From Naegleria gruberi (Eukaryota), in the NCBI GenBank assembly GCA_000004985.1, contig GG738923.1: a DNA stretch of 64,000 nt. The stretch is one strand, 5' to 3'. A program made the translations under genes and the position numbers. Shown here piece by piece: positions 3,973 through 31,300 of this stretch (positions are counted from its first letter, which is position 1; every line of letters begins with the position of its first letter). The notes beneath the pieces are model-generated. The model had not been told where the DNA came from, ran no database searches, and was given only the letters and a program-made list of their open reading frames with translations.

Positions 3973-4004
<32 letters not shown>

Positions 4005-4033: not shown

Positions 4034-4055
4034 TCAACAACAACAACAACAACAA

Positions 4056-5210: not shown

Positions 5211-5348
5211 TTGATTGATAATTGATAATTGTTATTTGATATTTGATAATAATTTTGAATTAATTGATATTTGAAATATATTTTGTAACAGTGTAAATAA
5301 AAACAATTTTAGAGAACAATGAAATTGATATTTGTTGTAAATACTTTC

Positions 5349-5392
5349 CATCAACACTAGTCATTTAAAAAGAGTAATGACTAGTGTTGATG
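5349..5392. repeat. Perfect 17-bp inverted repeat (hairpin) with a 10-nt loop in the region 3' of the GOLPH3-like gene.
   Basis: catcaacactagtcatt (5349..5365), loop taaaaagagt, then aatgactagtgttgatg (5376..5392). It is extended by outer imperfect arms actttccat (5343..5351) and atggaaagt (5412..5420). Confidence 0.8.
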
Positions 5393-5489
5393 TTTGCCAT
5401 TCATATCATAATGGAAAGTATTAGAATGTTATTTAAATCACACACGAAAGAACTGTTCAATTCAACAATATCAAAAAAAACAAAGTAAA

Positions 5490-6176: not shown

Positions 6177-6237
6177 AATATTTAATAAAAATTAAATACA
6201 ACTCTGAGTTAATAAAATTAAAATTAAAAATTAAAAT

Positions 6238-7029
6238 TTATTTTGGACAATATTTTGGAATTTCATATAAATTTAAATCTGATTGACCAATAATAAAATC
6301 AACATAATCAGTTGCACCTGGATCATTTTCTTGATTTGTAGAACGTAATGGAATTCTATCTTCCATTTTATCAGCAACTCTATGATAATATTTCATACCA
6401 TCTAAATCATCTATATTTGGAAATTGCCAAATATCACTATATAATCCTCTAAATAAACTTCTACCAATATAATTAGTAATTTGTAACCAATTAGGTGAAA
6501 TTAAAGGTAAAGTTCTAGATCTAATCCAACATTCTTGTGTTTTAGGATAAATATACCAAACAGTTGAATTCCACCATAAAATTGTAAAGTTTGTTGCACC
6601 CCATTCATTATTCATACTATAATAGGAATCAAAAAAATCAAATTTACCTAATTGATTTTTATAATCATAATATAATTTTGTCCATTGAATATCTGTATTA
6701 AATGGTGTTATTTTTAATAGGGTTGCATTAAATTGTAATGGCCATATTGGATTGGTTGGTATTATTGTATTTGTATTAGCATTAGTAGTTTTGGAATTAC
6801 TATATTTAGATAGAGTTCTAAATTTGTATTGTTGATTTAATTCTTGAATTTTTAATAATTGAAATGGAAGTGTATTTTCATAGATTTTAGTACGTGGAGT
6901 AGATGAGTGATAAATAGAAGTAGCAGTAGTAGATGATATTTTAGAACATTCACTCATGCAAGAAATGAATGCAATGATTACAATGAATATTATTGCAATA
7001 CTATTATTATAGGATTGTTGTTGTTGCAT
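6238..7029 (-). CDS. Secreted hypothetical protein (signal peptide; Trp/Tyr-rich).
   Basis: ORF begins MQQQQSYNNSIAIIFIVIIAFISCMSEC (hydrophobic signal-like segment), then a 230-aa region rich in W/Y/N with N-glycosylation sequons. No family recognised. An alternative upstream start is at 7056. Confidence 0.5.
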   Translation of the reverse strand: MQQQQSYNNSIAIIFIVIIAFISCMSECSKISSTTATSIYHSSTPRTKIYENTLPFQLLKIQELNQQYKFRTLSKYSNSKTTNANTNTIIPTNPIWPLQFNATLLKITPFNTDIQWTKLYYDYKNQLGKFDFFDSYYSMNNEWGATNFTILWWNSTVWYIYPKTQECWIRSRTLPLISPNWLQITNYIGRSLFRGLYSDIWQFPNIDDLDGMKYYHRVADKMEDRIPLRSTNQENDPGATDYVDFIIGQSDLNLYEIPKYCPK

Positions 7030-7183
7030 TTTTTTTAGAATTGATAAGATCCTCACACTGAAGTTGTACCTGTTTAAATAGGCATCCTGTTAGTGCTCAT
7101 GTTGTGGAGTAACTGAGCAGAAATTCGGAGTCTGTTACAATGTCATTTTATTATTTTGGAAAGTTGACCATTTTGAATTATTC

Positions 7184-7351
7184 GCGCCAAAATATTTACC
7201 TTTATTTTGGTGATGGAAACGTAAAAAGGTTGAAGAAATATGACGATAGTGTTTGAATATAGTTAAAATTAACTTCTTTATTGGTTTTTATGAAATGGGG
7301 TTTAAATTGACCAGTAAGTTGCGATCAAAATAAAGGTAAATATTTTGGCGC
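7184..7351. repeat. Pair of perfect 26-bp inverted repeats separated by 116 bp (MITE-like or stem-loop element) about 90 bp 3' of tRNA-Ile.
   Basis: gcgccaaaatatttacctttattttg (7184..7209) and its exact reverse complement caaaataaaggtaaatattttggcgc (7326..7351). Confidence 0.8.
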
Positions 7352-7437
7352 CAACATTTAGCAACTGCTCTTGTGTACTGTGTTAACAACAAGGTTGACA
7401 TGTAAAAAAAATCAATAAACTTTTATTCAAAAATATC

Positions 7438-7510
7438 TGCTGACCGACGGGATCGAACCGGCGACCAATGGCTTATTAGACCAACGCTCTACCGACTGAG
7501 CTACGCCAGC
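7438..7510 (-). tRNA. tRNA-Ile (anticodon AAU).
   Basis: Reverse complement reads GCTGGCGTAGCTCAGTCGGTAGAGCGTTGGTCTAATAAGCCATTGGTCGCCGGTTCGATCCCGTCGGTCA. It has a canonical D-arm (GCTC/GAGC), anticodon loop CTAATAA and T-loop GGTTCGATCC. One mismatch in the acceptor stem (G7-G66) and one in the T-stem suggest either a variant or a slight boundary error. Coordinates are +/-2. Confidence 0.7.
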
Positions 7511-7711
7511 TTCTCTAACTCCTTAATCCTTAATGAACTCATCAACTACGTTACAATTCTTGTAGGATAGCACGATAGCTGGTACCGATATCAAAAATTA
7601 ACCCAAGCAAGCCAATCCGTTTAGCTAGCGGGAATTATTGGTGATGTCACATTTCTTAAGAACATCAGAAAACTTGAAAAAAATAAGCAAACCATTCATC
7701 ATCAAAATAAC

Positions 7712-8404
7712 ATGAAAGCAAAAAAGAAAAATCTCGTGCTCCAAGGACAAGAAATATTTTCATCTGATGTTTGTTTTGAAATAATTTCCATAATTGATGA
7801 TTCGTGGTTTATTTTGAAGAATTGTTCCTTGATTTCAAAACAATTCTTTAATGTGATCAAGGAACGTTCAAAACTTTTTATCGAATTTAAAACAAAATTT
7901 ACAGAGACAAGAATTGAATTATTCATGAAAAGTCAATTTATGAACAGTATTGTTAATGTTAAATTTTCTAAAATGTTGTTTGACTCTATAGAAAAAGCCA
8001 AATTTATAACTGAAATGAAACAATTAACATTACTTGATATTGGTGGAAATCAAATTGGTGATGAAGGTATCAAACCAATAAGTAAAATGAAACAATTGAC
8101 ATCACTTTATGTTTACAATAATCAAATTGGCGTGGCAGGAGCCAAATATATTGGTGAAATGAAACAATTAACATCACTTACTATTAGTGGAAATTACATT
8201 GGTGATACAGGAGCCAAATTTATAAGTGAAATGAAACAATTAACATCACTTAATACATGCTACAATGAAATTGGTGTAGAAGGAGCCAAATCAATAAGTG
8301 AAATGAAACAATTAACATCACTTGAAATTGGTGGAAATCGAGTTGGTGATGAAGGAGCCAAATTTTTAATTGAAATGAAACGATTAAAATCACTTGATAT
8401 TTAG
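7712..8404 (+). CDS. F-box-like / leucine-rich repeat (RNI-type) protein.
   Basis: N-terminus FSSDVCFEIISIIDDSWFILKNCSLISKQFF is F-box-like. It is followed by five tandem 28-aa repeats (EMKQLTSLxIxGNxIGDEGAKxIS) typical of ribonuclease-inhibitor-type LRRs. It is a paralog of 31438..32349. Confidence 0.65.
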   Translation: MKAKKKNLVLQGQEIFSSDVCFEIISIIDDSWFILKNCSLISKQFFNVIKERSKLFIEFKTKFTETRIELFMKSQFMNSIVNVKFSKMLFDSIEKAKFITEMKQLTLLDIGGNQIGDEGIKPISKMKQLTSLYVYNNQIGVAGAKYIGEMKQLTSLTISGNYIGDTGAKFISEMKQLTSLNTCYNEIGVEGAKSISEMKQLTSLEIGGNRVGDEGAKFLIEMKRLKSLDI

Positions 8405-17524: not shown

Positions 17525-18494
17525 TTGATAGATCACGATAAAGATAATAGAATAGAAATGACAAAGATTGAATATCCAAATTTGATGGAGGACTCTATTG
17601 TTTATAATATTCAATATTTTATGGGAAAGGATTATGTGTATTTAGTGGACAAAAAAAATGGGACTGTTGGATCTTTTTCTCTCAATTCAGGCCAATTGTT
17701 AGTTAACTATTATTCAGATCATAGAGGAATCAGAAAGTTTATCACTGGACCTGTTTCTTCTTGTCATGTCGTGCTGACCTATGATGGAACTATTTTTGAG
17801 AATGGAAAGGAGGTTGTTTTTTTTTCAACTGATCCACAACCGAATATTTTGAGAGCTGCATGTTGTGGAAGAGGATCAATTCTGGCTTCTTCTCATGATC
17901 TTTATGCAAGAGGAGATGATAATGTATTCTTTGCGTTTTCAGAAAAGTTTGGAGACTACAATCACAATGTTTCAGCAACAAAGTTTGTACATATTGCTAA
18001 ATTTGAACACGAAATTAGAGATATCCAATGTGGATACTTTTTTTCTGTAGTTCTTTTGCATAATAATGAATTATTGGCATGTGGCTATAATGGCTTGAAT
18101 CAATCCTCTTGGGATTCTTCCTATGGTGAGATTAAACAATTTACCAAAATTCAATACTCGTTCGGTTATATTGAGAGATTTGGCTGTTCTTCAAGAGGTA
18201 CTTGGGTTGTTAGTGGTGAGTATTTTGATGTTCTTTTTCTTATCTTTTTAAGGTGATGAGGTTACAATGGTAGGAGAGGTTGTTGAACTTTTTACAACCT
18301 TAGTTTCAAATACAGGAGTTCCAAAAATCATAAAGTTTCATCTGGAGGACTTTGATTGTGATACATTGATGAATTGTGGATGGCACTACGTGATGTACAA
18401 CCAAAACCCAAAGAAGAGTAACTATTTCAAAGAAAGACTTCATACCATGGTTGAATTGGAACTAATTACTGACCTTGGTTTCATTTGCCAATAA
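17525..18494 (+). CDS. RCC1-like (beta-propeller repeat) protein. Two exons: 17525..18215 and 18253..18494; intron 18216..18252.
   Basis: Blade-like motifs ILASSHDLYARGDDN, VVLLHNNELLACGYNGLNQSS and RGTWVVSG. GTGAGT donor and TTTAAG acceptor (37-nt intron) join in phase to GDEVTMVGEVVELF...GFICQ*. Paralogous to 32519..33862. Confidence 0.55.
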
Positions 18495-18886
18495 GGCAAC
18501 TGGAGGAAATACATTGAAGGAATCGGTTTATTCCTTAAGCACAGCATGTGTCTCTGCCAAGTTTTTAACTTGAGGAAAACTAAGGAAGTCTGGAATTTCA
18601 ATGCACTTAAAAATAGTTTCTTAACAAAACAGAATATTTGTTGAAAAGTCTGTCGCTGGTAAGAGTGAGTTTATTCAAGAATTGGAAGATCAATTTGATT
18701 CTCAAACTCATTTGACTAAGTATAACTGATGCATAACTGTTAAAAGATCCATAGGGTGAGTCAACTAATTGCCAAATGATGATTTGAAGATTAACAAATT
18801 TTAAAATTAAGGTATGAGCAATCGATCTCTTATGCACCAATTTGTTTATTAAGGCGAATTAAGGAATGATATTTATCTTTATGTAA

Positions 18887-18957
18887 TCGGGCGTGGTATA
18901 GTGGTAGCATTCCAGACTGTCACTCTGGCGACCCGGGTTCAATTCCCGGCGTTCGAG
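18887..18957 (+). tRNA. tRNA-Asp (anticodon GUC), copy 1.
   Basis: TCGGGCGTGGTATAGTGGTAGCATTCCAGACTGTCACTCTGGCGACCCGGGTTCAATTCCCGGCGTTCGAG. Acceptor stem with 2 G-U pairs, Asp-type GUAU D-stem, anticodon stem CCAGA/TCTGG with loop CTGTCAC, and T-arm CCGGG-TTCAATT-CCCGG. Confidence 0.75.
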
Positions 18958-19318
18958 TTCAATTTTATGTAGTTTTTGAAAATTTATCTTGGAGTTTTGT
19001 ATCGAAGTTTGGACATCATTTTTCTATTTTAAATATGTGTGAAAAATGTCACGAAGCATGTTTGAAACTTTTGTAGTGAGAATATGGAGAGAGTGGATAC
19101 AATATCATTCATAGAAAGCCTAATGTGTTGTTTAGGTGGTATTGTTGTGTTCTATTAATAATAATTGAAATTAAGGTATGTACCATTTGTTTGTATTGAT
19201 TTAAATTTATTGAGTTATTAGTGTTGATATATAGTTATAGTAAACAATTAAGAAAACTTGAAAGATTCAGATCAGAATTGTAACACTTGTTAGTGATTGA
19301 GTTTCTTAGTAAAAAAAA

Positions 19319-20563
19319 ATGCGAAACAATAAAGAGGGGAAAGTTAGATTTTTTCTTTGTGATTTTAAACTTCCTTCCAGTGATGATAATTCCACTCAAA
19401 TATTAAATTGGTTAAAAATCAAATTTGGCCAATTAAAATTTTCATCATTTAATTGTTCATCAATAAGAGATTTTAAATTTTGTTCCGATAATTTATTGGA
19501 AAGAATTGATAGGATGGGATTTGAAAAACCATCCTATGTGCATAGGCAGTGTATTTTTCCAATGATTCGTTCTCATGAGAGTCAAGATTATTTATTCGAA
19601 AATTGTGGTGAAGGAACAGATCGGATTGTTTCGTATGTGATTGGAATTATTGAAAGAAGATATCGAATGAGGAATGAAAAGAATGGAACGACCATTGTGA
19701 TTGGAAATGGATGGCAATGGGCATATACTGTTAGATATTTGTTAAAATCTTTAGGAGGAGATGATTTGAAAGTTTGTTTGTGTTTGGAAGGATTCAGGGC
19801 AAGTACTTTTCAAGGAAATGAGGATGTGATTGTTGGAATTTGTAACAATGTGAACAATCTTGTCAATTCTGGGTCTCTAAAAGCAAAGGATGTAAATTTA
19901 TTGATTATTGATCAAGCTAATCATTTGATTTTTGATTTAGATTGTGGTTTACATATACTGATGTGGAATTTTAATTGTAAAGTTTGTTGGTTTTGTCTAA
20001 CTGATTGTCTGAAGGAAAATCCTCTGAGAGATCCCATCAAGATTCAAATATTGAAAGATGGAACAGATTATCCTGATCTGAGAGCTTCTTACTCTAAGAA
20101 TTTTTACATTGATGTAGAAATTGAAGACTACAAATACGAAACTATCAGTGATTTATTCGATATTTTGGATGGTCTTCGAGCAGTAGTGTACTGTGAATCA
20201 GATGAGAAAGCTAAGGCAATTTGTGAAAAATTGCAAGATCGGTTTCTTGTAGCATGTTTACACAGAGGCCTTGGAGAAACACAAATTGAGGAAATTAGAC
20301 AAGATTTTAATTGGGCAAAGGTTAGATTTTTATTTACAACAGATCATTTCTCTAAACTTGAATATCATCCAGTCTTGGTGATAAACTATGATTTACCATG
20401 GCAAAATGAAAAGTATGCACTTCGACAAATCACATCAAGGTTTAGAAATACAGCAACTATCAGCTTGATACGACACGAAGACGTTATTAAGATTAGAGAA
20501 ATTGAGAAATTTTATTTCATTGAAATTCAAGAATGTCCGTATGCCATTCTCGATTACCTTTGA
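19319..20563 (+). CDS. eIF4A-like DEAD-box helicase paralog with degenerate catalytic motifs (putative pseudo-helicase).
   Basis: 414-aa ORF colinear with eIF4A. RMGFEKPSYVHRQCIFPMIRSHESQDYLFENCGEGTDR corresponds to GFEKPSAIQQRAI...AQSGTGKT, with the Q-motif kept and the Walker A GKT lost. LIIDQANHL corresponds to VLDEADEML (DEAD lost). VLVINYDLPWQNEKYALRQITSRFRN corresponds to LVINYDLP.N.E.YIHRIGRGGR (motif VI lost). Domain 2 core (AVVYCESDEKAKAICEKL...FLFTTDHFSK) is retained. Confidence 0.75.
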   Translation: MRNNKEGKVRFFLCDFKLPSSDDNSTQILNWLKIKFGQLKFSSFNCSSIRDFKFCSDNLLERIDRMGFEKPSYVHRQCIFPMIRSHESQDYLFENCGEGTDRIVSYVIGIIERRYRMRNEKNGTTIVIGNGWQWAYTVRYLLKSLGGDDLKVCLCLEGFRASTFQGNEDVIVGICNNVNNLVNSGSLKAKDVNLLIIDQANHLIFDLDCGLHILMWNFNCKVCWFCLTDCLKENPLRDPIKIQILKDGTDYPDLRASYSKNFYIDVEIEDYKYETISDLFDILDGLRAVVYCESDEKAKAICEKLQDRFLVACLHRGLGETQIEEIRQDFNWAKVRFLFTTDHFSKLEYHPVLVINYDLPWQNEKYALRQITSRFRNTATISLIRHEDVIKIREIEKFYFIEIQECPYAILDYL

Positions 20564-20716
20564 TGAATTTCGAATGAATAGAAAGACAAGAAAAGGATAT
20601 CCTTCTTTGAAAAGAATACTGCTGATATCTTCAATTTTGGATATTAATTTATACATATTAATTATTACATAGAAATTTTCCTTCAATTCATGAATTTCAA
20701 TTTGGGAAATAGAAAA

Positions 20717-21853
20717 CTAAAAGTAATTGTTAACTGTAAGGGAACTGACCTCAGGTGCTGTGAGTGCCTTAGTGAAAATCATTACATTAGCAATATATCC
20801 AGTATAGTAATAAGTTCCAGCATTGTGTCCACCAATGGTCAACTTTCCATCACTCAAATTCTTGGAGGCAATTGAAGTTGCACTGGTCTTGTATAATGAT
20901 CCGTCAATATAGAGATCAGTACCATCAGTTCTAAAAACAAATACTAAATGTCTCCAAACATCGGTTGCAAATAGGGTTCCATCAGTTACAAAAGGTGTAG
21001 TAAACTTGTCATCATAAAAACTAAACCCTTTGGCAGAAGCAACGTTGAAGAAAATGTAATTACCATTAGTACTGAAAGCCATTGCAACACCTCCATAAGG
21101 GCTCTTAAGCCACAATGAAAAGCTGTTGGAAACTGTAAGATTGACATTCACAGTAGAAGCGAGACCATTCTTCTTTCCATCGAAATAAACTGATTTACCA
21201 CCTGGGAATGGTGAATCATTGGAAAAGACTGGATTTGAAGAAGCACCTTGATTTGGATTGTTAACCAAGTGGAGAGAACCAACACTATCAGCGAAGGTAT
21301 TATTGAAATAGTAAGCATGGGCAAGATATGGAGTCATTGGTGCTGTGAAAAAGGAGGAACAAGAGGCTCCAATATATGGTTTTGTACAAGTGCAATTATT
21401 AGGAGCAATACATGAACCGTGTCCAGAGCAAACCGAAGCATTATTAGCAGCCAATCCAAAACATACTGGGACACAGTTAGGATAATTGGTAAAACCATCT
21501 TGGCATGCATTACAATCAGAACCATTGTAAGTGGAACACTGGGAATTAATGACACGAATTTCAGCATCTAATAAGGCTATTGCTGAAGCAACTTTGGACA
21601 ATTGCTTGCTTCTCAAATCAATAATGGTCTTTAAAGATGGTGCTGATGAAGAATTACTAGTAAAGAAGGTGCTGTTTAACAAGTTAATAGTATTCTCTAA
21701 CTTGGTTTTGGTGCATGCCACAGCATCTCTTTCCTTTTGTAAAGAAGCTAAATAATCCCTCAATCCACCTGTTGTTTGGTGAAGAGTAAGTGTTATATTG
21801 GCTAGTAAGAGGAAAACTACTAGCAGCGCGCAAAACCTTAGCAATTGAATCAT
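20717..21853 (-). CDS. Secreted protein with signal peptide, EGF-like Cys-rich module and a concanavalin-A-like lectin / LamG (Laminin_G_3-type) domain.
   Basis: N-terminal MIQLLRFCALLVVFLLLANITLT signal. Cys pattern CSTYNGSDCNACQDGFTNYPNCVPVC...CSGHGSCIAPNNCTCTKPYIGASC (EGF-like). C-terminal WLKSPYGGVAMAF...VWRHLVFVFRTDGTDLYIDGSLY...LTIGGHNAGTYYYTGYIANVMIFTKALTAPEV matches the LamG/pentraxin jelly-roll consensus (W.H.....DG...lYvDG......iG......f.G.i..v.i...aLs..E). Confidence 0.75.
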   Translation of the reverse strand: MIQLLRFCALLVVFLLLANITLTLHQTTGGLRDYLASLQKERDAVACTKTKLENTINLLNSTFFTSNSSSAPSLKTIIDLRSKQLSKVASAIALLDAEIRVINSQCSTYNGSDCNACQDGFTNYPNCVPVCFGLAANNASVCSGHGSCIAPNNCTCTKPYIGASCSSFFTAPMTPYLAHAYYFNNTFADSVGSLHLVNNPNQGASSNPVFSNDSPFPGGKSVYFDGKKNGLASTVNVNLTVSNSFSLWLKSPYGGVAMAFSTNGNYIFFNVASAKGFSFYDDKFTTPFVTDGTLFATDVWRHLVFVFRTDGTDLYIDGSLYKTSATSIASKNLSDGKLTIGGHNAGTYYYTGYIANVMIFTKALTAPEVSSLTVNNYF

Positions 21854-22382
21854 GTTGTTGTTGGTTGGTATTAAGGAAGATCGTACTTAATCCTGTGAGG
21901 AGTTTTTTTTGAAAACAGTGGTCCTTTTGATTGGTGCTTGTTTGGTCGCATCTTCGTTTACAGTAAAATCCACTGTAACGGATAGTTTTTTAAGGAACTG
22001 TATTGGAATGGATTGTTGAGGCTTTCAATATTGTAGATTATTGTTTATACGACTTGATAAATTGCAACCAAATCAATATGGTTGGATATTAAGCAGCGGA
22101 TATCGACTTTGAATGTGATTTTGTTGAATAAAATTGCATGAAGTTCGATTGTATGTTGTCCCTAGTGTCAGGACGGTCCTTTATTTTGTCGATCTAAAAT
22201 GAGGAAATCGCTCCCCACAAAACAAAAAACAGATGGACCAATTTAAAATAAATAATTTTGGTTTGCTGTTTTGTCTAACAAAATCAAGATTGTTTGGACC
22301 AACATAACATTAATGATTGTATGTTGTCTAGTCTGATGGTAACAGTAAAAATGGAGCCTGACATCAAAATAATAATGATAAT

Positions 22383-23336
22383 TTAAATGGAAAACTTAAT
22401 GTATTCGTGAAATTGAGCAGATGATCCAGGATAAAAATCTTGTTGAAATTGTAAATGTTTTGCTTCTTCTTGAATTGTAACAGAAGATTTAATTGTTTGA
22501 AGAGATTTGATAACATCACTTTTCGTTGGTTGTGATAGGGCATTAAGACTAATATTGAAACTATTATTGGTAGCCATTAAGGCATTTCTAATAATGTTCA
22601 TCTGTGAATCCCTTACTACACACATTAAATCCGCATATGAATATCCATCACACATTGTGGAAATCTCCTCAATTTCATCATCTTGTATTGAACTATTTCT
22701 AAATGCATCTCTCAATATCTCAATCCTTTTCTCCTTATCTGGAAGAGGAATGTGAAATCTCCTCTTAAATATTTTCCTCACAGCTGGATTAATATTCCAA
22801 GGTGTTGAGCTTATAACCAAAACAATTACCCTACTCTCACGATCATACATGGATTGGAGAAATTCTTTCAAAACTGAAATTTCCTTCTCTGAATTACTAT
22901 TCCAATCACAAAATTCCAAATCATCGATTACTATAATACTTGGTTGACTAAGTTTTGCTTTTTCAAATACTTCTTGCATTGAACGTTTAAAATCATGATC
23001 TTGAGTGTAGATTACTTCTGCTTTTATCCTTTCATCGGTGAGTATTTTCTTAGTTAAATAGGTTTTACCCTTTTCCGATCAAATCAAAATATTAAATTTA
23101 ATATTACTCTCCAAATGATCATGATATTTGCTTACCACTCCTGGACATCCGTGAATTAATATTTCATTCCAAACTTTTGCATCAGGATATTCGAGAGGGA
23201 GAAGAATACTCTCAAGAAGTTCTTCTTCAATGCTAAGTTTTTTCTGTTGCAGCTGTTGTTCTTCTTCGCTAATAGAGGAAATTGTGGAATTGTGTTGTAA
23301 CATTTTTTTGTTGTAATGTTGATTGCATTCGTACAC
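22383..23336 (-). CDS. Short AAA+ ATPase (classic AAA clade) with non-canonical Walker B and sensor-1. Two exons: 23136..23336 and 22383..23069; intron 23070..23135. 295 aa.
   Basis: Exon 1 ends ...LIHGCPGV at GTAAGC. After a 66-nt intron, exon 2 continues GKTYLTKKIL, reconstituting Walker A GCPGVGKT. Walker B is IIVIDDLEF (DD instead of DE). Sensor-1 region VIVLVISSTPWNINPA lacks the Asn. Arg-finger region RKIFKRRFHIPLPDKEKRIEIL and the helical lid ISTMCDGYSYADLMCVVRD are AAA-typical. Confidence 0.7.
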
Positions 23337-23411
23337 ATGATTGTTTATTAATAGTTTGAAAGGTCGACTTGATTAAATGATGGAACAATGTAGTAGCACC
23401 ATCGAGTGGAA

Positions 23412-24767
23412 TTATTCAATGGAGGTCTTGAAATTATAAATGTGATTGAATTTGACTTCTAATAAGCTTAGTTCTTTGATTGCGTTTTGGATCAATGAAT
23501 CAATGAGTTGAGTTTTTTCATTGGATTTCTTCTTGCATAGTTTCTTATGAGCTGATTTTGCTTCCTCTAAACATTGAATTCTATCCTTGAGAGCTCTTGG
23601 TATCCTTTCTTGCTTAATATACGAATGGGCACGATCATTTCTATCATTAATGATGGATTGAACATCTGAAAGCTTGAATAATTCTCTGAATTTCCTAACT
23701 CTGGAATTTTCGTCATCCACCATTTTGTCTTCGCATGCTAATACTGACCTAATACAATCGGTGAATATCTTATTGATGTGATTGTATTGATCCTCGATTG
23801 AAATCTTTTGTTTCTCTAAGCAAAGGGTACTTTTAAATGCTTCGAATCTTCCAAGACAAGTAATAAGCTGTTTACACAAATCAAAATTACCAGAATCAAA
23901 CAGTTTAAAGAATACCTTAATAATATCAATATCTCCTTTCAGAATTGCTTTAGCAACAAGGAGAGTGGCTGCATTCTCGGAGGGTGGGGCTGATTTCTCC
24001 CTGTGTTTCAGTACAATCCCATTCACAGTTACAGGATCCTCCATGGTAATGGTTGAAATCAAGCGAATCATCAAATCATCGTCGTTACAAATATGAGGAA
24101 TTATTTCTTTACATTTGAAAGTATTATTTTCCAATGCGGCAACCAAGTCCAGTTCTGTAAAATTAGTAGTTGATTGATCTGGTTGTTGAATCTCCTTATC
24201 AGCTGCCCATGCTGTCTCTTTTGTATCTTTTACATGTGGTTTTGTTGTTGTGCGTTTCTTCTCCTTTCCAATAGGCTTTGGGGCTGTAGTGGAACTCAAA
24301 TTAGCAACCACAGTTTTCACTACTGTAGTATTTGATGAAGAAGCAGATTGATTCGAAACTGGTAAAGGTATTCTTGCAAGTACAGTTTTGACTTGGTCAA
24401 CAATATTTGTATTTGGAATATCTTCGACAAGGTTGACAAATTCTCCAATACTATATTTGAAACCTTGATGACCGTGTAATTTCTTCTTTTCATAAGAAAT
24501 ATCAACATCATAATAGAATTTCTGTTCAAAAACATGATACAAATCAACTCTTTCATCAAACTCCCAACAATGAGAATAAAGTAATTTACACCAACTCTTC
24601 AAACATGTTCTCTTCACCCACATTCTTTCCAAGTCTGTCGATCTTTCAACATGATATTCAAGCAGCCTCTCACTCCTATCCACTTCACAATTTCCTCTGT
24701 AAATATAATGATATTTGTGATCATCTAAATAGACTCTTGCACCCAAGTTATCTGGATAAAATATCCN
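23412..24767 (-). CDS. Copy 1 of the unknown 517-aa protein gene; 5' end runs into N-gap 24768..24816 (partial).
   Basis: ORF 23412..24746 corresponds to residues about 74-517 of the complete copy. It has a one-residue indel (KRTTTKPHV vs KRTTKPHV). Confidence 0.5.
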   Translation of the reverse strand, partial: XIFYPDNLGARVYLDDHKYHYIYRGNCEVDRSERLLEYHVERSTDLERMWVKRTCLKSWCKLLYSHCWEFDERVDLYHVFEQKFYYDVDISYEKKKLHGHQGFKYSIGEFVNLVEDIPNTNIVDQVKTVLARIPLPVSNQSASSSNTTVVKTVVANLSSTTAPKPIGKEKKRTTTKPHVKDTKETAWAADKEIQQPDQSTTNFTELDLVAALENNTFKCKEIIPHICNDDDLMIRLISTITMEDPVTVNGIVLKHREKSAPPSENAATLLVAKAILKGDIDIIKVFFKLFDSGNFDLCKQLITCLGRFEAFKSTLCLEKQKISIEDQYNHINKIFTDCIRSVLACEDKMVDDENSRVRKFRELFKLSDVQSIINDRNDRAHSYIKQERIPRALKDRIQCLEEAKSAHKKLCKKKSNEKTQLIDSLIQNAIKELSLLEVKFNHIYNFKTSIE

Positions 24768-25218
24768 NNNNNNNNNNNNNNNNNNNNNNNNNNNNNNNNN
24801 NNNNNNNNNNNNNNNNTTGCCAATAAGGCAACTGGAGGAAATACATTGAAGGAATCGGTTTATTCCTTAAGCACAGCATGTGTCTCTGCCAAGTTTTTAA
24901 CTTGAGGAAAACTAAGGAAGTCTGGAATTTCAATGCACTTAAAAATAGTTTCTTAACAAAACAGAATATTTGTTGAAAAGTCTGTCGCTGGTAAGAGTGA
25001 GTTTATTCAAGAATTGGAAGATCAATTTGATTCTCAAACTCATTTGACTAAGTATAACTGATGCATAACTGTTAAAAGATCCATAGGGTGAGTCAACTAA
25101 TTGCCAAATGATGATTTGAAGATTAACAAATTTTAAAATTAAGGTATGAGCAATCGATCTCTTATGCACCAATTTGTTTATTAAGGCGAATTAAGGAATG
25201 ATATTTATCTTTATGTAA

Positions 25219-25289
25219 TCGGGCGTGGTATAGTGGTAGCATTCCAGACTGTCACTCTGGCGACCCGGGTTCAATTCCCGGCGTTCGAG
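25219..25289 (+). tRNA. tRNA-Asp (anticodon GUC), copy 2 (identical, in duplication unit 2).
   Basis: Same 71-nt sequence 6332 bp downstream of copy 1. Confidence 0.75.
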
Positions 25290-25650
25290 TTCAATTTTAT
25301 GTAGTTTTTGAAAATTTATCTTGGAGTTTTGTATCGAAGTTTGGACATCATTTTTCTATTTTAAATATGTGTGAAAAATGTCACGAAGCATGTTTGAAAC
25401 TTTTGTAGTGAGAATATGGAGAGAGTGGATACAATATCATTCATAGAAAGCCTAATGTGTTGTTTAGGTGGTATTGTTGTGTTCTATTAATAATAATTGA
25501 AATTAAGGTATGTACCATTTGTTTGTATTGATTTAAATTTATTGAGTTATTAGTGTTGATATATAGTTATAGTAAACAATTAAGAAAACTTGAAAGATTC
25601 AGATCAGAATTGTAACACTTGTTAGTGATTGAGTTTCTTAGTAAAAAAAA

Positions 25651-25914
25651 ATGCGAAACAATAAAGAGGGGAAAGTTAGATTTTTTCTTTGTGATTTTAA
25701 ACTTCCTTCCAGTGATGATAATTCCACTCAAATATTAAATTGGTTAAAAATCAAATTTGGCCAATTAAAATTTTCATCATTTAATTGTTCATCAATAAGA
25801 GATTTTAAATTTTGTTCCGATAATTTATTGGAAAGAATTGATAGGATGGGATTTGAAAAACCATCCTATGTGCATAGGCAGTGTATTTTTCCAATGATTC
25901 GTTCTCATGAGAGT
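25651..25914 (+). CDS. Second copy of the eIF4A-like degenerate helicase gene, 5' part only (truncated by N-gap 25915..27305).
   Basis: Identical N-terminal 88 codons (MRNNKEGKVRFFLCDFKL...MIRSHES) before the gap. Confidence 0.6.
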
Positions 25915-27305
25915 NNNNNNNNNNNNNNNNNNNNNNNNNNNNNNNNNNNNNNNNNNNNNNNNNNNNNNNNNNNNNNNNNNNNNNNNNNNNNNNNNNNNNN
26001 NNNNNNNNNNNNNNNNNNNNNNNNNNNNNNNNNNNNNNNNNNNNNNNNNNNNNNNNNNNNNNNNNNNNNNNNNNNNNNNNNNNNNNNNNNNNNNNNNNNN
26101 NNNNNNNNNNNNNNNNNNNNNNNNNNNNNNNNNNNNNNNNNNNNNNNNNNNNNNNNNNNNNNNNNNNNNNNNNNNNNNNNNNNNNNNNNNNNNNNNNNNN
26201 NNNNNNNNNNNNNNNNNNNNNNNNNNNNNNNNNNNNNNNNNNNNNNNNNNNNNNNNNNNNNNNNNNNNNNNNNNNNNNNNNNNNNNNNNNNNNNNNNNNN
26301 NNNNNNNNNNNNNNNNNNNNNNNNNNNNNNNNNNNNNNNNNNNNNNNNNNNNNNNNNNNNNNNNNNNNNNNNNNNNNNNNNNNNNNNNNNNNNNNNNNNN
26401 NNNNNNNNNNNNNNNNNNNNNNNNNNNNNNNNNNNNNNNNNNNNNNNNNNNNNNNNNNNNNNNNNNNNNNNNNNNNNNNNNNNNNNNNNNNNNNNNNNNN
26501 NNNNNNNNNNNNNNNNNNNNNNNNNNNNNNNNNNNNNNNNNNNNNNNNNNNNNNNNNNNNNNNNNNNNNNNNNNNNNNNNNNNNNNNNNNNNNNNNNNNN
26601 NNNNNNNNNNNNNNNNNNNNNNNNNNNNNNNNNNNNNNNNNNNNNNNNNNNNNNNNNNNNNNNNNNNNNNNNNNNNNNNNNNNNNNNNNNNNNNNNNNNN
26701 NNNNNNNNNNNNNNNNNNNNNNNNNNNNNNNNNNNNNNNNNNNNNNNNNNNNNNNNNNNNNNNNNNNNNNNNNNNNNNNNNNNNNNNNNNNNNNNNNNNN
26801 NNNNNNNNNNNNNNNNNNNNNNNNNNNNNNNNNNNNNNNNNNNNNNNNNNNNNNNNNNNNNNNNNNNNNNNNNNNNNNNNNNNNNNNNNNNNNNNNNNNN
26901 NNNNNNNNNNNNNNNNNNNNNNNNNNNNNNNNNNNNNNNNNNNNNNNNNNNNNNNNNNNNNNNNNNNNNNNNNNNNNNNNNNNNNNNNNNNNNNNNNNNN
27001 NNNNNNNNNNNNNNNNNNNNNNNNNNNNNNNNNNNNNNNNNNNNNNNNNNNNNNNNNNNNNNNNNNNNNNNNNNNNNNNNNNNNNNNNNNNNNNNNNNNN
27101 NNNNNNNNNNNNNNNNNNNNNNNNNNNNNNNNNNNNNNNNNNNNNNNNNNNNNNNNNNNNNNNNNNNNNNNNNNNNNNNNNNNNNNNNNNNNNNNNNNNN
27201 NNNNNNNNNNNNNNNNNNNNNNNNNNNNNNNNNNNNNNNNNNNNNNNNNNNNNNNNNNNNNNNNNNNNNNNNNNNNNNNNNNNNNNNNNNNNNNNNNNNN
27301 NNNNN
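25915..27305. other. Assembly gap (1391 N) inside duplication unit 2. Smaller gaps at 1906..2184 and 24768..24816.
   Basis: Runs of N. The ORFs drawn across them in the six-frame track are artefacts. Confidence 1.
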
Positions 27306-28188
27306 AATAGGGTTCATCAGTTACAAAAGGTGTAGTAAACTTGTCATCATAAAAACTAAACCCTTTGGCAGAAGCAACGTTGAAGAAAATGTAATTACCA
27401 TTAGTACTGAAAGCCATTGCAACACCTCCATAAGGGCTCTTAAGCCACAATGAAAAGCTGTTGGAAACTGTAAGATTGACTGTCACAGTAGAAGCGAGAC
27501 CATTCTTCTTTCCATCGAAATAAACTGATTTACCACCTGGGAATGGTGAATCATTGGAAAAGACTGGATTTGAAGAAGCACCTTGATTTGGATTGTTAAT
27601 CAAGTGGAGAGAACCAGCACTATCAGCGAAAGTATTATTGAAATAGTAAGCATGGGCAAGATATGGAGTCATTGGTGCTGTGAAAAAGGAGGAACAAGAG
27701 GCTCCAATATATGGTTTTGTACAAGTGCAATTATTAGGAGCAATACATGAACCGTGTCCAGAGCAAACCGAAGCATTATTAGCAGCCAATCCAAAACATA
27801 CTGGGACACAGTTAGGATAATTGGTAAAACCATCTTGGCATGTATTACAATCAGAACCATTGTAAGTGGAACACTGGGAATTAATGACACGAATTTCAGC
27901 ATCTAATAAGGCTATTGCTGAAGCAACTTTGGACAATTGCTTGCTTCTCAAATCAATAATGGTCTTTAAAGATGGTGCTGATGAAGAATTACTAGTAAAG
28001 AAGGTGCTGTTTAACAAGTTAATAGTATTCTCTAACTTGGTTTTGGTGCATGCCACAGCATCTCTTTCCTTTTGTAAAGAAGCTAAATAATCCCTCAATC
28101 CACCTGTTGTTTGTTGAAGAGTAAGTGTTATATTGGCTAGTAAGAGGAAAACTACTAGCAGCGCGCAAAACCTTAGCAATTGAATCAT
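27306..28188 (-). CDS. Second copy of the EGF/LamG secreted protein gene; N-terminal about 294 codons present, 3' end lost in N-gap.
   Basis: About 99% identical to 20962..21853. Amino-acid differences seen: H25Q, A116T, V/A and V/I changes, N/T. Confidence 0.6.
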
Positions 28189-28717
28189 GTTGTTGTTGGT
28201 TGGTATTAAGGAAGATCGTACTTAATCCTGTGAGGAGTTTTTTTTGAAAACAGTGGTCCTTTTGATTGGTGCTTGTTTGGTCGCATCTTCGTTTACAGTA
28301 AAATCCACTGTAACGGATAGTTTTTTAAGGAACTGTATTGGAATGGATTGTTGAGGCTTTCAATATTGTAGATTATTGTTTATACGACTTGATAAATTGC
28401 AACCAAATCAATATGGTTGGATATTAAGCAGCGGATATCGACTTTGAATGTGATTTTGTTGAATAAAATTGCATGAAGTTCGATTGTATGTTGTCCCTAG
28501 TGTCAGGACGGTCCTTTATTTTGTCGATCTAAAATGAGGAAATCGCTCCCCACAAAACAAAAAACAGATGGACCAATTTAAAATAAATAATTTTGGTTTG
28601 CTGTTTTGTCTAACAAAATCAAGATTGTTTGGACCAACATAACATTAATGATTGTATGTTGTCTAGTCTGATGGTAACAGTAAAAATGGAGCCTGACATC
28701 AAAATAATAATGATAAT

Positions 28718-29671
28718 TTAAATGGAAAACTTAATGTATTCGTGAAATTGAGCAGATGATCCAGGATAAAAATCTTGTTGAAATTGTAAATGTTTTGCTT
28801 CTTCTTGAATTGTAACAGAAGATTTAATTGTTTGAAGAGATTTGATAACATCACTTTTCGTTGGTTGTGATAGGGCATTAAGACTAATATTGAAACTATT
28901 ATTGGTAGCCATTAAGGCATTTCTAATAATGTTCATCTGTGAATCCCTTACTACACACATTAAATCCGCATATGAATATCCATCACATTTTGTGGAAATC
29001 TCCTCAATTTCATCATCTTGTATTGAACTATTTCTAAATGCATCTCTCAATATCTCAATCCTTTTCTCCTTATCTGGAAGAGGAATGTGAAATCTCCTCT
29101 TAAATATTTTCCTCACAGCTGGATTAATATTCCAAGGTGTTGAGCTTATAACCAAAACAATTACCCTACTCTCACGATCATACATGGATTGGAGAAATTC
29201 TTTCAAAACTGAAATTTCCTTCTCTGAATTACTATTCCAATCACAAAATTCCAAATCATCGATTACTATAATACTTGGTTGACTAAGTTTTGCTTTTTCA
29301 AATACTTCTTGCATTGAACGTTTAAAATCATGATCTTGAGTGTAGATTACTTCTGCTTTTATCCTTTCATCGGTGAGTATTTTCTTAGTTAAATAGGTTT
29401 TACCCTTTTCCGATCAAATCAAAATATTAAATTTAATATTACTCTCCAAATGATCGTGATATTTGCTTACCACTCCTGGACATCCGTGAATTAATATTTC
29501 ATTCCAAACTTTTGCATCAGGATATTCGAGAGGGAGAAGAATACTCTCAAGAAGTTCTTCTTCAATGCTAAGTTTTTTCTGTTGCAGCTGTTGTTCTTCT
29601 TCACTCACAGAGGAAATTGTGGAATTGTGTTGTAACATTTTTTTGTTGTAATGTTGATTGCATTCGTACAC
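28718..29671 (-). CDS. Second copy of the short AAA+ ATPase gene (exons 29471..29671 and 28718..29404).
   Basis: Identical structure at offset +6335. Two amino-acid differences (I/V in SSISEEE vs SSVSEEE; M/K in ISTMCDGY vs ISTKCDGY). Confidence 0.7.
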
Positions 29672-29746
29672 ATGATTGTTTATTAATAGTTTGAAAGGTC
29701 GACTTGATTAAATGATGGAACAATGTAGTAGCACCATCGAGTGGAA

Positions 29747-31300
29747 TTATTCAATGGAGGTCTTGAAATTATAAATGTGATTGAATTTGACTTCTAATAA
29801 GCTTAGTTCTTTGATTGCGTTTTGGATCAATGAATCAATGAGTTGAGTTTTTTCATTGGATTTCTTCTTGCATAGTTTCTTATGAGCTGATTTTGCTTCC
29901 TCTAAACATTGAATTCTATCCTTGAGAGCTCTTGGTATCCTTTCTTGCTTAATATACGAATGGGCACGATCATTTCTATCATTAATGATGGATTGAACAT
30001 CTGAAAGCTTGAATAATTCTCTGAATTTCCTAACTCTGGAATTTTCGTCATCCACCATTTTGTCTTCGCATGCTAATACTGACCTAATACAATCGGTGAA
30101 TATCTTATTGATGTGATTGTATTGATCCTCGATTGAAATCTTTTGTTTCTCTAAGCAAAGGGTACTTTTAAATGCTTCGAATCTTCCAAGACAAGTAATA
30201 AGCTGTTTACACAAATCAAAATTACCAGAATCAAACAGCTTAAAGAATACCTTAATTATATCAATATCTCCTTTCAGAATTGCTTTAGCAACAAGGAGAG
30301 TGGCTGCATTCTCGGAGGGTGGGGCTGATTTCTCCCTGTGTTTCAGTACAATCCCATTCACAGTTACAGGATCCTCCATGGTAATGGTTGAAATCAAGCG
30401 AATCATCAAATCATCGTCGTTACAAATATGAGGAATTATTTCTTTACATTTGAAAGTATTATTTTCCAATGCGGCAACCAAGTCCAGTTCTGTAAAATTA
30501 GTAGTTGATTGATCTGGTTGTTGAATCTCCTTATCAGCTGCCCATGCTGTCTCTTTCGTATCTTTTACATGTGGTTTTGTAGTGCGTTTCTTCTCCTTTC
30601 CAATAGGCTTTGGGGCTGTAGTGGAACTCAAATTAGCAACCACAGTTTTCACTACTGTAGTATTTGATGAAGAAGCAGATTGATTCGAAACTGGTAAAGG
30701 TATTCTTGCAAGTACAGTTTTGACTTGGTCAACAATATTTGTATTTGGAATATCTTCGACAAGGTTGACAAATTCTCCAATACTATATTTGAAACCTTGA
30801 TGACCGTGTAATTTCTTCTTTTCATAAGAAATATCAACATCATAATAGAATTTCTGTTCAAAAACATGATACAAATCAACTCTTTCATCAAACTCCCAAC
30901 AATGAGAATAAAGTAATTTACACCAACTCTTCAAACATGTTCTCTTCACCCACATTCTTTCCAAGTCTGTCGATCTTTCAACATGATATTCAAGCAGCCT
31001 CTCACTCCTATCCACTTCACAATTTCCTCTGTAAATATAATGATATTTGTGATCATCTAAATAGACTCTTGCACCCAAGTTATCTGGATTAAAATTATCC
31101 GAAATGACTTCATAAACAGATAATAATTGATTCTTGAATGGAAAATCTACTTTGATTTCTCTCGACCATTTTTCAACAACTGAATCTCCCTTGAGCATGT
31201 AAACAATAAAGGCTTTGTTGTAGAGGACATCCATCATGTACTGCTTTTTAGGATCATAATTCGGAATGTGTGTTTGTGCTTCAGAACGGAATTGAGACAT
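29747..31300 (-). CDS. Hypothetical 517-aa protein, no recognisable domain (complete copy). It lies 75 bp upstream of the AAA+ ATPase gene, co-oriented.
   Basis: Single ORF, not low-complexity. The N-terminal half is rich in conserved-looking aromatic/charged residues (RVYLDDHKYHYIYRGNCEVDRSERLLEYHVERSTDLERMWVKRTCLKSWCKLLYSHCWEFDE). The C-terminal half is alpha-helical and Lys/Glu-rich. Confidence 0.6.
   Translation of the reverse strand: MSQFRSEAQTHIPNYDPKKQYMMDVLYNKAFIVYMLKGDSVVEKWSREIKVDFPFKNQLLSVYEVISDNFNPDNLGARVYLDDHKYHYIYRGNCEVDRSERLLEYHVERSTDLERMWVKRTCLKSWCKLLYSHCWEFDERVDLYHVFEQKFYYDVDISYEKKKLHGHQGFKYSIGEFVNLVEDIPNTNIVDQVKTVLARIPLPVSNQSASSSNTTVVKTVVANLSSTTAPKPIGKEKKRTTKPHVKDTKETAWAADKEIQQPDQSTTNFTELDLVAALENNTFKCKEIIPHICNDDDLMIRLISTITMEDPVTVNGIVLKHREKSAPPSENAATLLVAKAILKGDIDIIKVFFKLFDSGNFDLCKQLITCLGRFEAFKSTLCLEKQKISIEDQYNHINKIFTDCIRSVLACEDKMVDDENSRVRKFRELFKLSDVQSIINDRNDRAHSYIKQERIPRALKDRIQCLEEAKSAHKKLCKKKSNEKTQLIDSLIQNAIKELSLLEVKFNHIYNFKTSIE

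What the first reader, a model, noticed from the sequence alone, without database searches (positions are those of the whole stretch)
22383..23336. Minimal AAA+ ATPase with non-canonical Walker B (DDLE) and missing sensor-1 Asn, sitting 75 bp downstream of an unknown 517-aa gene
A classic-clade AAA module (Walker A GCPGVGKT restored only after splicing a 66-nt intron) with almost no N-terminal substrate domain (about 45 aa). Walker B reads IIVIDDLEF and the sensor-1 region reads SSTPW instead of ATN. It may therefore bind but hydrolyse ATP poorly. It is co-oriented with, and only 75 bp 3' of, the domain-less 517-aa protein gene (23412.. and 29747..31300), and the pair is duplicated together. 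This suggests a functional pairing, or a mis-split single locus.
Basis: partly seen in the sequence, partly recalled or inferred. Interest (0 to 1): 0.55.

Follow-up and report, generated by a model that had tools for sequence, protein, structure and literature searches.

The report
Degenerate stand-alone AAA module in Naegleria
This is a real but heavily degenerate, species-restricted relative of the VPS4/spastin/katanin ATPases in Naegleria gruberi that has lost almost every catalytic and substrate-pulling residue, while its supposed partnership with the upstream gene and their joint duplication are not supported.

Summary
A 66-nt GT-AG intron (23070-23135, minus strand) joins two ORFs into a 284-aa classic AAA protein with an intact Walker A (GCPGVGKT), Walker B IIVIDDLE and SSTPW at sensor 1. 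The organism is Naegleria gruberi (Heterolobosea), not an amoebozoan. RefSeq annotates only exon 2 (198 aa, no P-loop).

The degeneration goes further than reported. Both trans arginine fingers are lost (RRF to KIF). Pore loop 1 reads TQDH instead of K-aromatic-x-G. Pore loop 2 is shortened, and there is no MIT or other N-domain. Its best matches by sequence and fold are the meiotic clade (VPS4, spastin, katanin, FIGNL1), including the clade's C-terminal helix.

It is an orphan: nothing exceeds about 35% identity among 1.84 billion representative proteins.

The pairing idea fails. The only paralogue of the 517-aa protein is followed by an RGS gene, not an AAA gene. A second strain has a 10-nt indel in the 108-nt spacer, which also holds two in-frame stops.

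The "duplication" is a 6.3-kb block that also carries a tRNA-Asp and a secreted-protein gene. Both ends of homology are assembly gaps, so unmerged haplotypes are the likeliest cause.

Best reading: a nucleotide-binding, non-hydrolysing, non-translocating pseudo-ATPase. A decaying duplicate is the main rival.

The parts
23136..23303 (-). AAA gene exon 1 (M1-V56): short acidic/Gln-rich N-terminus, the N-terminal AAA helix, and the first half of Walker A (G52-C-P-G-V56 at 23150-23136)
   Evidence: The ATG at 23303 lies in an A-rich context. The frame is open only 11 codons further upstream, with no ATG there.
23070..23135 (-). 66-nt intron, GTAAGC...AAAAG, with an in-frame TGA if retained
   Evidence: Removing it restores GCPGVGKT and gap-free alignment to homologues.
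22383..23069 (-). AAA gene exon 2 (G57-I284 plus stop). G57-K-T59 at 23069-23061. Pore-loop-1 equivalent T78-Q-D-H81 at 23006-22995. Walker B D105-D106 at 22925-22920. Sensor-1 S143-S-T-P-W147 at 22811-22797. Arg-finger positions K155-I156 at 22775-22770. Lid domain and C-terminal helix follow.
   Evidence: This ORF alone is the RefSeq model NAEGRDRAFT_75285 (198 aa, starting at M87).
23304..23411 (-). 108-nt spacer between the stop of the 517-aa-family ORF and the AAA ATG. The two ORFs share a frame but are separated by two TAA stops.
   Evidence: In strain contig L002 this spacer carries a 10-nt insertion and 5 substitutions.
23412..24766 (-). Copy 1 of the 517-aa-family ORF, cut off by the 50-N assembly gap at 24767-24816
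   Evidence: The RefSeq model NAEGRDRAFT_75286 (710 aa) is a chimera spliced across the gaps.
28718..29638 (-). Second copy of the AAA gene (exon 2 28718-29404, intron 29405-29470, exon 1 29471-29638). It differs by 2 aa (I11V, M195K).
   Evidence: RefSeq NAEGRDRAFT_75287.
29747..31300 (-). Full-length 517-aa ORF (NAEGRDRAFT_54005). No Pfam, NCBIfam or PDB match. Conserved N-terminal Cys/His-rich block, variable linker, helical C-terminal third.
18485..24766 (.). First copy of the ~6.33-kb redundant block: tRNA-Asp, Laminin_G_3/EGF secreted-protein gene, AAA gene and most of the 517-aa ORF
   Evidence: 18485-19582 equals 24817-25914 (100%, 1098 bp) and 20970-24766 equals 27306-31100 (99.4%). 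Also.
24767..31100 (.). Second copy of the block. It starts at the 50-N gap and contains a 1391-N gap (25915-27305) that matches the real 1387-bp spacing in copy 1.

Best explanation
The locus encodes a separate, two-exon, 284-aa protein. It is a fast-evolving derivative of the meiotic clade of classic AAA ATPases (VPS4/CdvC, spastin, katanin, fidgetin), so far seen only in N. gruberi.

What it keeps (shown):
- the alpha/beta nucleotide-binding fold
- an intact P-loop
- the Mg-binding Walker B Asp
- the lid domain
- the clade's C-terminal helix

What it has lost (shown):
- the catalytic Walker B Glu (now Asp)
- the sensor-1 Asn (now Ser)
- both trans-acting Arg fingers (now Lys and Ile)
- the pore-loop-1 aromatic motif (now TQDH)
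- the basic pore loop 2
- any MIT or other N-terminal targeting domain

Inferred mechanism. It can probably still bind nucleotide, but it cannot hydrolyse at a useful rate. It cannot activate a neighbouring subunit and cannot grip or translocate a polypeptide. It therefore acts, if at all, as a pseudo-ATPase: a nucleotide-dependent scaffold, or a non-catalytic subunit that docks on rings or spirals of canonical relatives through the retained oligomerisation surfaces.

The upstream 517-aa gene is simply a neighbour in a compact genome. The apparent tandem duplication is most likely two unmerged haplotype contigs.
For: Gene model and motifs.

Clade assignment:
- The best single-domain sequence matches all carry Vps4_C. 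VPS4B is the best single-stretch PDB hit at 88.6 bits.
- CdvC is the best NCBIfam model.
- The C-terminal half aligns to the very end of spastin (E=2e-5) and katanin.
- 42 of the top 50 Foldseek PDB hits to the AF2 model (pLDDT 77) are Vps4, FIGNL1, spastin or katanin.

Functional meaning of the lost residues (PMC6279391): pore-loop mutations abolish severing. Arg fingers act in trans and are required for ATPase activity. The C-terminal helix is clade-specific and needed for hexamerisation.

Long-term constraint: the protein has diverged to about 30% identity with every relative yet keeps a 284-codon open frame, where chance expectation is about 1e-10. The frame and splice sites are also intact in an independent strain.

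Separate gene.

Assembly redundancy.
Against: - No expression or protein evidence could be obtained.
- No orthologue exists in any other sampled species, so conservation of the degenerate motifs cannot be tested.
- Allele and strain differences give dN/dS of roughly 0.5-1.4 from only 6-10 changes, which is indistinguishable from neutrality.
- Nucleotide binding is inferred from motifs only. The N-terminal adenine-contacting loop is also poorly conserved.
- The AF2 model lacked exon 1 and used a meiotic-clade alignment, which biases the fold ranking.
Confidence: 0.6

Rival explanations
1. It is a decaying partial duplicate of a meiotic-clade AAA gene: a recent pseudogene in the making with no present function. 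The ORF is still open only because too little time has passed.
For: - Orphan status.
- Loss of the N-domain and of nearly all functional motifs.
- Allele and strain changes are mostly non-synonymous (4N:2S and 6N:1S). The neighbouring 517-aa ORF shows 6N:11S, with binomial p=8e-5 for constraint.
- The RefSeq model is only a fragment.
Against: - Divergence to about 30% identity from every relative requires hundreds of substitutions. Under neutrality these would have introduced stops and frameshifts in a 68% A+T sequence.
- Fold-critical residues remain (P-loop, PW, IPLPD, lid, C-terminal helix).
- The splice sites are intact in all three alleles.
- The AAA versus 517 difference in N:S is not significant (Fisher p=0.12-0.26).
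Confidence: 0.25
2. The AAA module and the 517-aa protein form a functional pair. The 517-aa protein would supply in trans the missing N-terminal substrate or targeting domain.
For: - The genes are co-oriented and 108 nt apart.
- The adjacency is retained in a second strain.
- The AAA protein lacks an N-domain of its own.
Against: - The only paralogue of the 517-aa protein has an RGS gene, not an AAA gene, downstream.
- Short spacers are the rule in this window, for example 137 nt between the LRR gene and the 517-aa gene.
- The co-duplication covers four genes and is probably an assembly artefact.
- The two genes appear to be under different levels of constraint.
- The second strain is only 1.8% diverged, so retained adjacency says little.
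Confidence: 0.1
3. It is an active, non-canonical ATPase. Asp106 would serve as the catalytic base and Ser144 as sensor 1, as other polar residues do in some AAA+ clades.
For: - Walker A and the Mg-binding Asp are intact.
- Polar sensor-1 substitutes occur in other AAA+ families (own knowledge).
Against: - Both trans Arg fingers are replaced (K155, I156), and pore loops 1 and 2 are degenerate.
- Arg-finger mutation alone inactivates katanin and spastin (PMC6279391).
Confidence: 0.05
4. The 517-aa ORF and the AAA ORF are one mis-split gene, joined by splicing or read-through.
For: In the reference the two ORFs are in the same frame.
Against: - Two in-frame TAA stops lie between them, and only a non-canonical GTCAAA donor could bridge them.
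- A 10-nt insertion in the spacer of the other strain destroys the frame relationship.
- The paralogue ends at the equivalent position without an AAA domain.
Confidence: 0.02

Closest known systems
VPS4 / archaeal CdvC (meiotic-clade AAA ATPases that disassemble ESCRT-III)
   Same: - Best sequence relatives (VPS4B 88.6 bits; VPS4-like P0138 100 bits; CdvC is the best NCBIfam model).
- Best Foldseek hits.
- Shares the P-loop, the 'PW' and 'IPLPD' signatures, the lid domain and the C-terminal helix.
   Different: - No MIT domain.
- No VPS4 beta-domain insert.
- Walker B Glu, sensor-1 Asn, both Arg fingers and both pore loops are lost.
Spastin / katanin p60 / fidgetin-like 1 (microtubule-severing and related meiotic-clade enzymes)
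   Same: - Same domain length and no beta-domain.
- The C-terminal half aligns to the end of spastin (E=2e-5) and katanin.
- TM about 0.76-0.78 to spastin AAA structures.
- N. gruberi itself has a canonical spastin, D2VS83 (PMC11772885).
   Different: It lacks the MIT domain and microtubule-binding linker, the pore-loop residues needed for severing and the Arg fingers needed for ATPase activity (PMC6279391).
Degenerate VPS4-like paralogues in other lineages: P0135 (396 aa, from SRA assemblies, on a contig with a repeat-rich neighbouring ORF that I read as BspA-like LRR, not tested) and the Mya arenaria 'VPS4-like' proteins (P0113)
   Same: - P0135 shares Walker B IDDIDF, sensor-1 SSTPWNIDP and a shortened pore loop 1.
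- P0113 shares the DD Walker B and a non-Asn sensor 1.
   Different: - P0135 keeps a weak MIT domain (21.9 bits, below Pfam's 30-bit cut-off), the VPS4 beta-domain and one Arg finger.
- It is only about 31-33% identical and comes from an unrelated organism, so the shared states look convergent.
- No wider family was found around either protein.
Non-hydrolysing AAA domains used as assembly modules, such as NSF D2 (own knowledge, not tested here), and KATNAL2, a katanin homologue that does not sever microtubules (PMC6279391)
   Same: The concept is the same: a classic-clade AAA domain with a DD-type Walker B that binds but barely hydrolyses ATP and serves oligomerisation or regulation.
   Different: - NSF D2 is a domain inside a larger active enzyme, whereas this is a stand-alone 284-aa protein.
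- By sequence it is closer to NSF D1 and VPS4 than to NSF D2.

Membership tests
Classic AAA (Pfam PF00004) | Significant match to the AAA domain profile plus the AAA lid | tested here: met
   PF00004 E=3e-15, 57.3 bits against cut-off 21.2. AAA_lid_3 E=6.8e-6, 26.0 bits against 27.2. 252 PDB AAA chains match at E<=1e-3.
Classic AAA (active ATPase) | Walker A GxxGxGK[ST] | tested here: met
   G52-C-P-G-V-G-K-T59 after splicing
Classic AAA (active ATPase) | Walker B hhhhDE with a catalytic Glu | tested here: not met
   I-I-V-I-D105-D106. The Glu is replaced by Asp in every alignment.
Classic AAA (active ATPase) | Second region of homology: sensor-1 Asn and two trans Arg fingers | tested here: not met
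   AATNxPW becomes VISSTPW (Asn to S144). RRF becomes K155-I156-F157.
Classic AAA unfoldase/translocase | Pore loop 1 K-[W/Y/F]-x-G and a basic pore loop 2 | tested here: not met
   The pore-loop-1 position reads T78-Q-D-H81. A 6-8-residue deletion lies just upstream. Pore loop 2 lacks the RR pair and is 2 residues shorter.
Meiotic clade (VPS4, spastin, katanin, fidgetin) | Clade-specific C-terminal helix (alpha12, Pfam Vps4_C) | tested here: inconclusive
   Vps4_C scores only E=0.046, 14.1 bits against cut-off 21.3. However, the C-terminal half aligns to the end of spastin (E=2e-5) and katanin. AF2 predicts a terminal helix at residues 255-268 with pLDDT 81-89. The archaeal VAT D2 domain matches this region equally well.
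Meiotic clade (VPS4, spastin, katanin, fidgetin) | Closest relatives by sequence and fold are clade members | tested here: met
   Caveat: the AF2 alignment was built from clade members.
Meiotic clade (VPS4, spastin, katanin, fidgetin) | N-terminal MIT (or LisH) targeting domain plus linker | tested here: not met
   Only about 22 residues precede the AAA module. There is no room for upstream exons, because the neighbouring ORF ends 108 nt upstream.
VPS4 proper | Beta-domain insert in the lid that binds Vta1/LIP5 | tested here: not met
   Absent in alignment A1.
Conserved gene pair / fused locus (AAA + 517-aa protein) | Adjacency or fusion conserved in paralogues or other taxa | tested here: not met
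   The paralogue NAEGRDRAFT_70540 is followed by an RGS gene. No homologues of either gene were found elsewhere. The spacer indel and stops argue against fusion.
True tandem segmental duplication | A sequenced junction between the end of copy 1 and the start of copy 2 | not testable with these tools
   The junction lies in the 50-N gap at 24767-24816. Both limits of homology are contig ends. The independent contig L002 shows the genes once but ends 70 bp beyond the matched region.

The most novel reading that the evidence does not exclude
A stand-alone, nucleotide-binding but catalytically dead meiotic-clade subunit inserts into, or caps, spirals or rings of Naegleria's canonical spastin, katanin or Vps4. 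It would use the retained C-terminal-helix interface and so tune polymer disassembly, for example during the amoeba-flagellate transition. Because it has neither Arg fingers nor pore loops, it would act as a natural 'poison subunit'. Independent emergence of the same motif set (DD, SST, shortened pore loop) in an unrelated protist VPS4 paralogue would then point to a recurrent regulatory solution.
Probability: 0.1. Interest if true: 0.55.

Novelty: new variant of a known kind. Interest (0 to 1): 0.25.

Why it matters
If the protein is expressed, it would be a naturally occurring, N-domain-less pseudo-ATPase derived from the VPS4/severing-enzyme clade. That would make it a small model for how AAA rings are regulated by dead subunits, and for how such genes degenerate.

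The practical outcomes are more certain:
- Two RefSeq models (NAEGRDRAFT_75285 and NAEGRDRAFT_75287) lack their first exon and P-loop.
- One model (NAEGRDRAFT_75286) is a chimera built across assembly gaps.
- A 6.3-kb stretch of this scaffold is probably redundant haplotype sequence.

Beyond that, the locus is a lineage-specific orphan of modest general interest.

Tried and rejected
- Fusion of the two ORFs. I enumerated all GT..AG introns that could bridge them. Only a non-canonical GTCAAA donor works. The idea is also contradicted by the 10-nt spacer indel and by the end point of the paralogue.
- Searches for orthologues or conserved adjacency. These were the word-indexed search, the exhaustive HMMER search of 1.84 billion representatives and two JGI metagenome scans. 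They found nothing beyond N. gruberi itself and one paralogue of the 517-aa protein.
- Structure of the 517-aa protein. The AF2 model has pLDDT 41.6, and only the C-terminal helices are confident. Foldseek gave no hit at E<=0.001. Profile searches against PDB and NCBIfam were empty. Its function remains unknown.
- P0135 as a true family member that would reveal an ancestral MIT domain. Rejected: identity is only about 31-33% (29% by BLASTP), it has a VPS4-type beta-domain, and it sits on an AT-rich contig next to a repeat-rich ORF that looks BspA-like. It therefore comes from an unrelated organism.
- Expression evidence from the literature. No paper mentions the locus tags, and no supplement was held.
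- Full-length structure prediction.

Full report
**What is there.** The window is AT-rich eukaryotic DNA (about 33% G+C). An exact protein match identifies it as Naegleria gruberi (Heterolobosea), not an amoebozoan.

On the minus strand, two ORFs (23079-23336 and 22383-22979) are joined by removing a 66-nt GTAAGC...AAAAG intron at 23135-23070. Exon 1 is 23303-23136 and exon 2 is 23069-22383. Together they give an 855-nt CDS of 284 aa.

The splice rebuilds the P-loop G52-C-P-G-V|G-K-T59, and the product aligns with homologues across the junction without a gap. If the intron is retained, it contributes an in-frame TGA.

Pfam AAA scores E=3e-15 (57.3 bits, cut-off 21.2) and AAA_lid_3 scores E=6.8e-6. 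A 284-codon open frame at this base composition has a chance expectation of about 1e-10.

**Motif audit.** I used HMMER alignments to VAT, Cdc48 and p97 and a MAFFT alignment with eleven VPS4-, katanin- and KATNAL2-like proteins.

- Walker B is I101-I-V-I-D105-D106-L-E108. The catalytic Glu is an Asp.
- With the conserved Pro-Trp as anchor, AATNxPW reads V-I-S143-S144-T145-P-W147. The sensor-1 Asn is therefore S144.
- The two arginines that precede the conserved Phe (RRF in spastin, VPS4 and katanin; R359 and R362 in p97 by my recollection of the numbering) correspond to K155 and I156. Both trans Arg fingers are gone.
- Pore loop 1 (K-[W/Y/F]-x-G) aligns with T78-Q-D-H81, and there is a 6-8-residue deletion just upstream.
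- Pore loop 2 lacks its RR pair and is shorter.
- Six residues are missing between the N-terminal helix and strand beta1.
- The canonical 'D-I/V-A-G-L' nucleotide-contacting stretch is not recognisable.

What remains is the P-loop, the Mg-binding Asp, 'PW', 'IPLPD', the lid domain and a C-terminal helix. A canonical proteasomal Rpt-type AAA gene in the same window (50456-51536, minus strand) shows all the normal motifs (MFIGDG, DELD, ATN) and serves as an internal control.

The review PMC6279391 gives the functional meaning of these residues. Pore-loop mutations abolish severing. Arg fingers act in trans and are required for ATPase activity. The C-terminal helix is clade-specific and needed for hexamerisation.

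**Which AAA family.** Tandem-AAA proteins top the E-value lists only because two domains add up. Ranked by single domain, the best matches are all meiotic-clade proteins carrying Pfam Vps4_C, with MIT, KATNA1_MIT or LisH N-domains.

- VPS4B is the best single-stretch PDB hit at 88.6 bits, against 70.6 bits for VAT D2.
- Archaeal CdvC is the best NCBIfam model.
- The C-terminal 119 residues align to the very end of spastin (E=2e-5) and katanin. p97 and Cdc48 match only the lid, although VAT D2 matches as far as the clade members do.
- An AF2 model of exon 2 (pLDDT 77.3) finds Vps4, FIGNL1, spastin or katanin in 42 of the top 50 PDB hits. This is biased, because the input alignment was built from clade members.

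The protein has no VPS4 beta-domain and no MIT domain. By descent it is a meiotic-clade derivative. By function-defining features it fails the test for an active member.

**Distribution and constraint.** An exhaustive HMMER search of 1.84 billion representative proteins found only the protein itself below 1e-30. Everything else is 22-36% identical. A profile search and two metagenome scans added nothing.

An independent ENA assembly contig (L002, 98.2% identical) carries the genes once in the order NUDIX, LRR, 518-aa ORF, AAA. The ORF and splice sites are intact there.

Differences among the three alleles are few:

| Gene | Comparison | Non-synonymous : synonymous | Approximate dN/dS |
|---|---|---|---|
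| AAA | copy 1 vs L002 | 4 : 2 | about 0.5 |
| AAA | copy 2 vs L002 | 6 : 1 | about 1.4 |
| 517-aa ORF | copy 2 vs L002 | 6 : 11 | about 0.14 |

The AAA values are not distinguishable from neutrality. The 517-aa ORF is clearly constrained (binomial p=8e-5). The contrast between the two genes is not significant (Fisher p=0.12-0.26).

Against a long-dead pseudogene stands the fact that the protein has diverged to about 30% identity yet kept an open frame and its fold-critical residues. This is an inference.

**The 517-aa neighbour and the pairing idea.** The 517-aa ORF (NAEGRDRAFT_54005) has no Pfam, NCBIfam or PDB match. AF2 is confident only for the C-terminal helices, and the fold search was uninformative.

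Its single homologue is the N. gruberi paralogue NAEGRDRAFT_70540 (40% identity). That protein ends at the equivalent position and is followed 288 nt later by an RGS gene, not an AAA gene.

The two ORFs here share a reading frame but are separated by two TAA stops. No canonical donor could bridge them. In L002 the 108-nt spacer carries a 10-nt insertion plus five substitutions, which destroys the frame relationship. Spacers of this size are normal in the window, for example 137 nt between the LRR gene and the 517-aa gene. A fused gene is effectively excluded, and a functional pair has no positive support.

**The duplication.** Self-comparison gives two blocks:

- 18485-19582 equals 24817-25914 (100% identity, 1098 bp, including tRNA-Asp-GTC).
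- 20970-24766 equals 27306-31100 (99.4% identity, 17 mismatches, 4 indels).

The unit is about 6.33 kb and contains a tRNA gene, a Laminin_G_3/EGF secreted-protein gene, the AAA gene and most of the 517-aa ORF.

Every limit of homology is a contig end. Copy 1 stops at the 50-N gap and copy 2 starts right after it. The 1391-N gap inside copy 2 equals the true 1387-bp spacing in copy 1. No junction sequence exists.

The 0.45% mismatch level fits what I recall of the allelic heterozygosity reported for the N. gruberi genome (own recollection, not verified here). Dovetailing, unmerged haplotype contigs are the most economical explanation. A very recent true tandem duplication cannot be excluded. 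Either way, the block is not evidence that the 'pair' is a unit. The RefSeq model NAEGRDRAFT_75286 (710 aa) is a chimera spliced across these gaps.

**Mechanism.** Shown: the sequence features and clade affinity described above.

Inferred: the protein probably binds nucleotide, because Walker A and the Mg-binding Asp are intact. It should not hydrolyse efficiently, because it has no catalytic Glu and no sensor-1 Asn. It cannot stimulate a neighbour, because it has no Arg fingers. It cannot thread a substrate, because it has no pore loops. It has no targeting domain.

The retained oligomerisation elements suggest that any activity is exerted by assembling with itself or with canonical relatives. 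N. gruberi has a conserved spastin, D2VS83 (PMC11772885).

The main rival is a decaying duplicate. Similar motif losses in an unrelated protist VPS4 paralogue (P0135) and in clam VPS4-like proteins (P0113) show that such degenerate copies arise repeatedly.

**Verdict.** This is a new degenerate variant of a known kind, of modest interest (0.25) until expression and partners are shown.

Noticed in passing
window 22383-22979 and 28718-29314; 23412-28188: There are RefSeq annotation problems. NAEGRDRAFT_75285 and NAEGRDRAFT_75287 are 198-aa fragments that miss exon 1 and the P-loop. NAEGRDRAFT_75286 (710 aa) fuses the N-terminus of the secreted Laminin_G/EGF protein to the truncated 517-aa ORF across two assembly gaps.
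   Followed up: yes
window 18887-18957 and 25219-25289: Two identical tRNA-Asp (GTC) genes lie inside the 100%-identical 1098-bp block (18485-19582 equals 24817-25914). This showed that the redundant unit is 6.3 kb rather than the gene pair alone.
   Followed up: yes
window 50456-51536 (minus strand): This is a canonical proteasome Rpt-type AAA gene with all the normal motifs (MFIGDG pore loop, DELD, ATN). It also seems to have an intron just upstream of its Walker A. It is a useful in-genome contrast to the degenerate AAA.
   Followed up: partly
L003 737-1927 (P0135), with a neighbouring ORF at L003 2542-4245: A 396-aa VPS4-like protein from SRA assemblies (25-28% G+C contig, next to a repeat-rich 567-aa ORF that I read as BspA-like LRR, not tested) carries the same derived states as the Naegleria protein: Walker B IDDIDF, sensor-1 SSTPWNIDP and a shortened pore loop 1. 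This looks like convergent degeneration of a VPS4 paralogue. The organism was not identified.
   Followed up: partly
window 29747-31300; L001 444-2003: The 517-aa protein family has two N. gruberi paralogues and no homologue elsewhere. It has a strongly conserved N-terminal block rich in Cys, His and Trp (NLGARVYL...YRGxCxxDRSE...HVER...WCK..YSHCWExDER..LYHVF), a variable linker and a conserved helical C-terminal third (MVDDENSRV). It is under purifying selection (6N:11S) but has no recognisable fold.
   Followed up: partly
L002 1-1588 versus window beyond 32351: The independent strain contig stops matching the window upstream of 32351. Its LRR gene is 432 aa against 303 aa here and is preceded by a NUDIX gene. 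Its last 70 bp downstream of the AAA gene also differ. These suggest structural differences between strains.
   Followed up: no
window 1-8000: G+C is markedly lower here (16-28%) than in the rest of the window (about 30-35%). There is a 279-N gap at 1906-2184 and a tRNA-Ile (AAT) at 7438-7510. This region was not examined.
   Followed up: no
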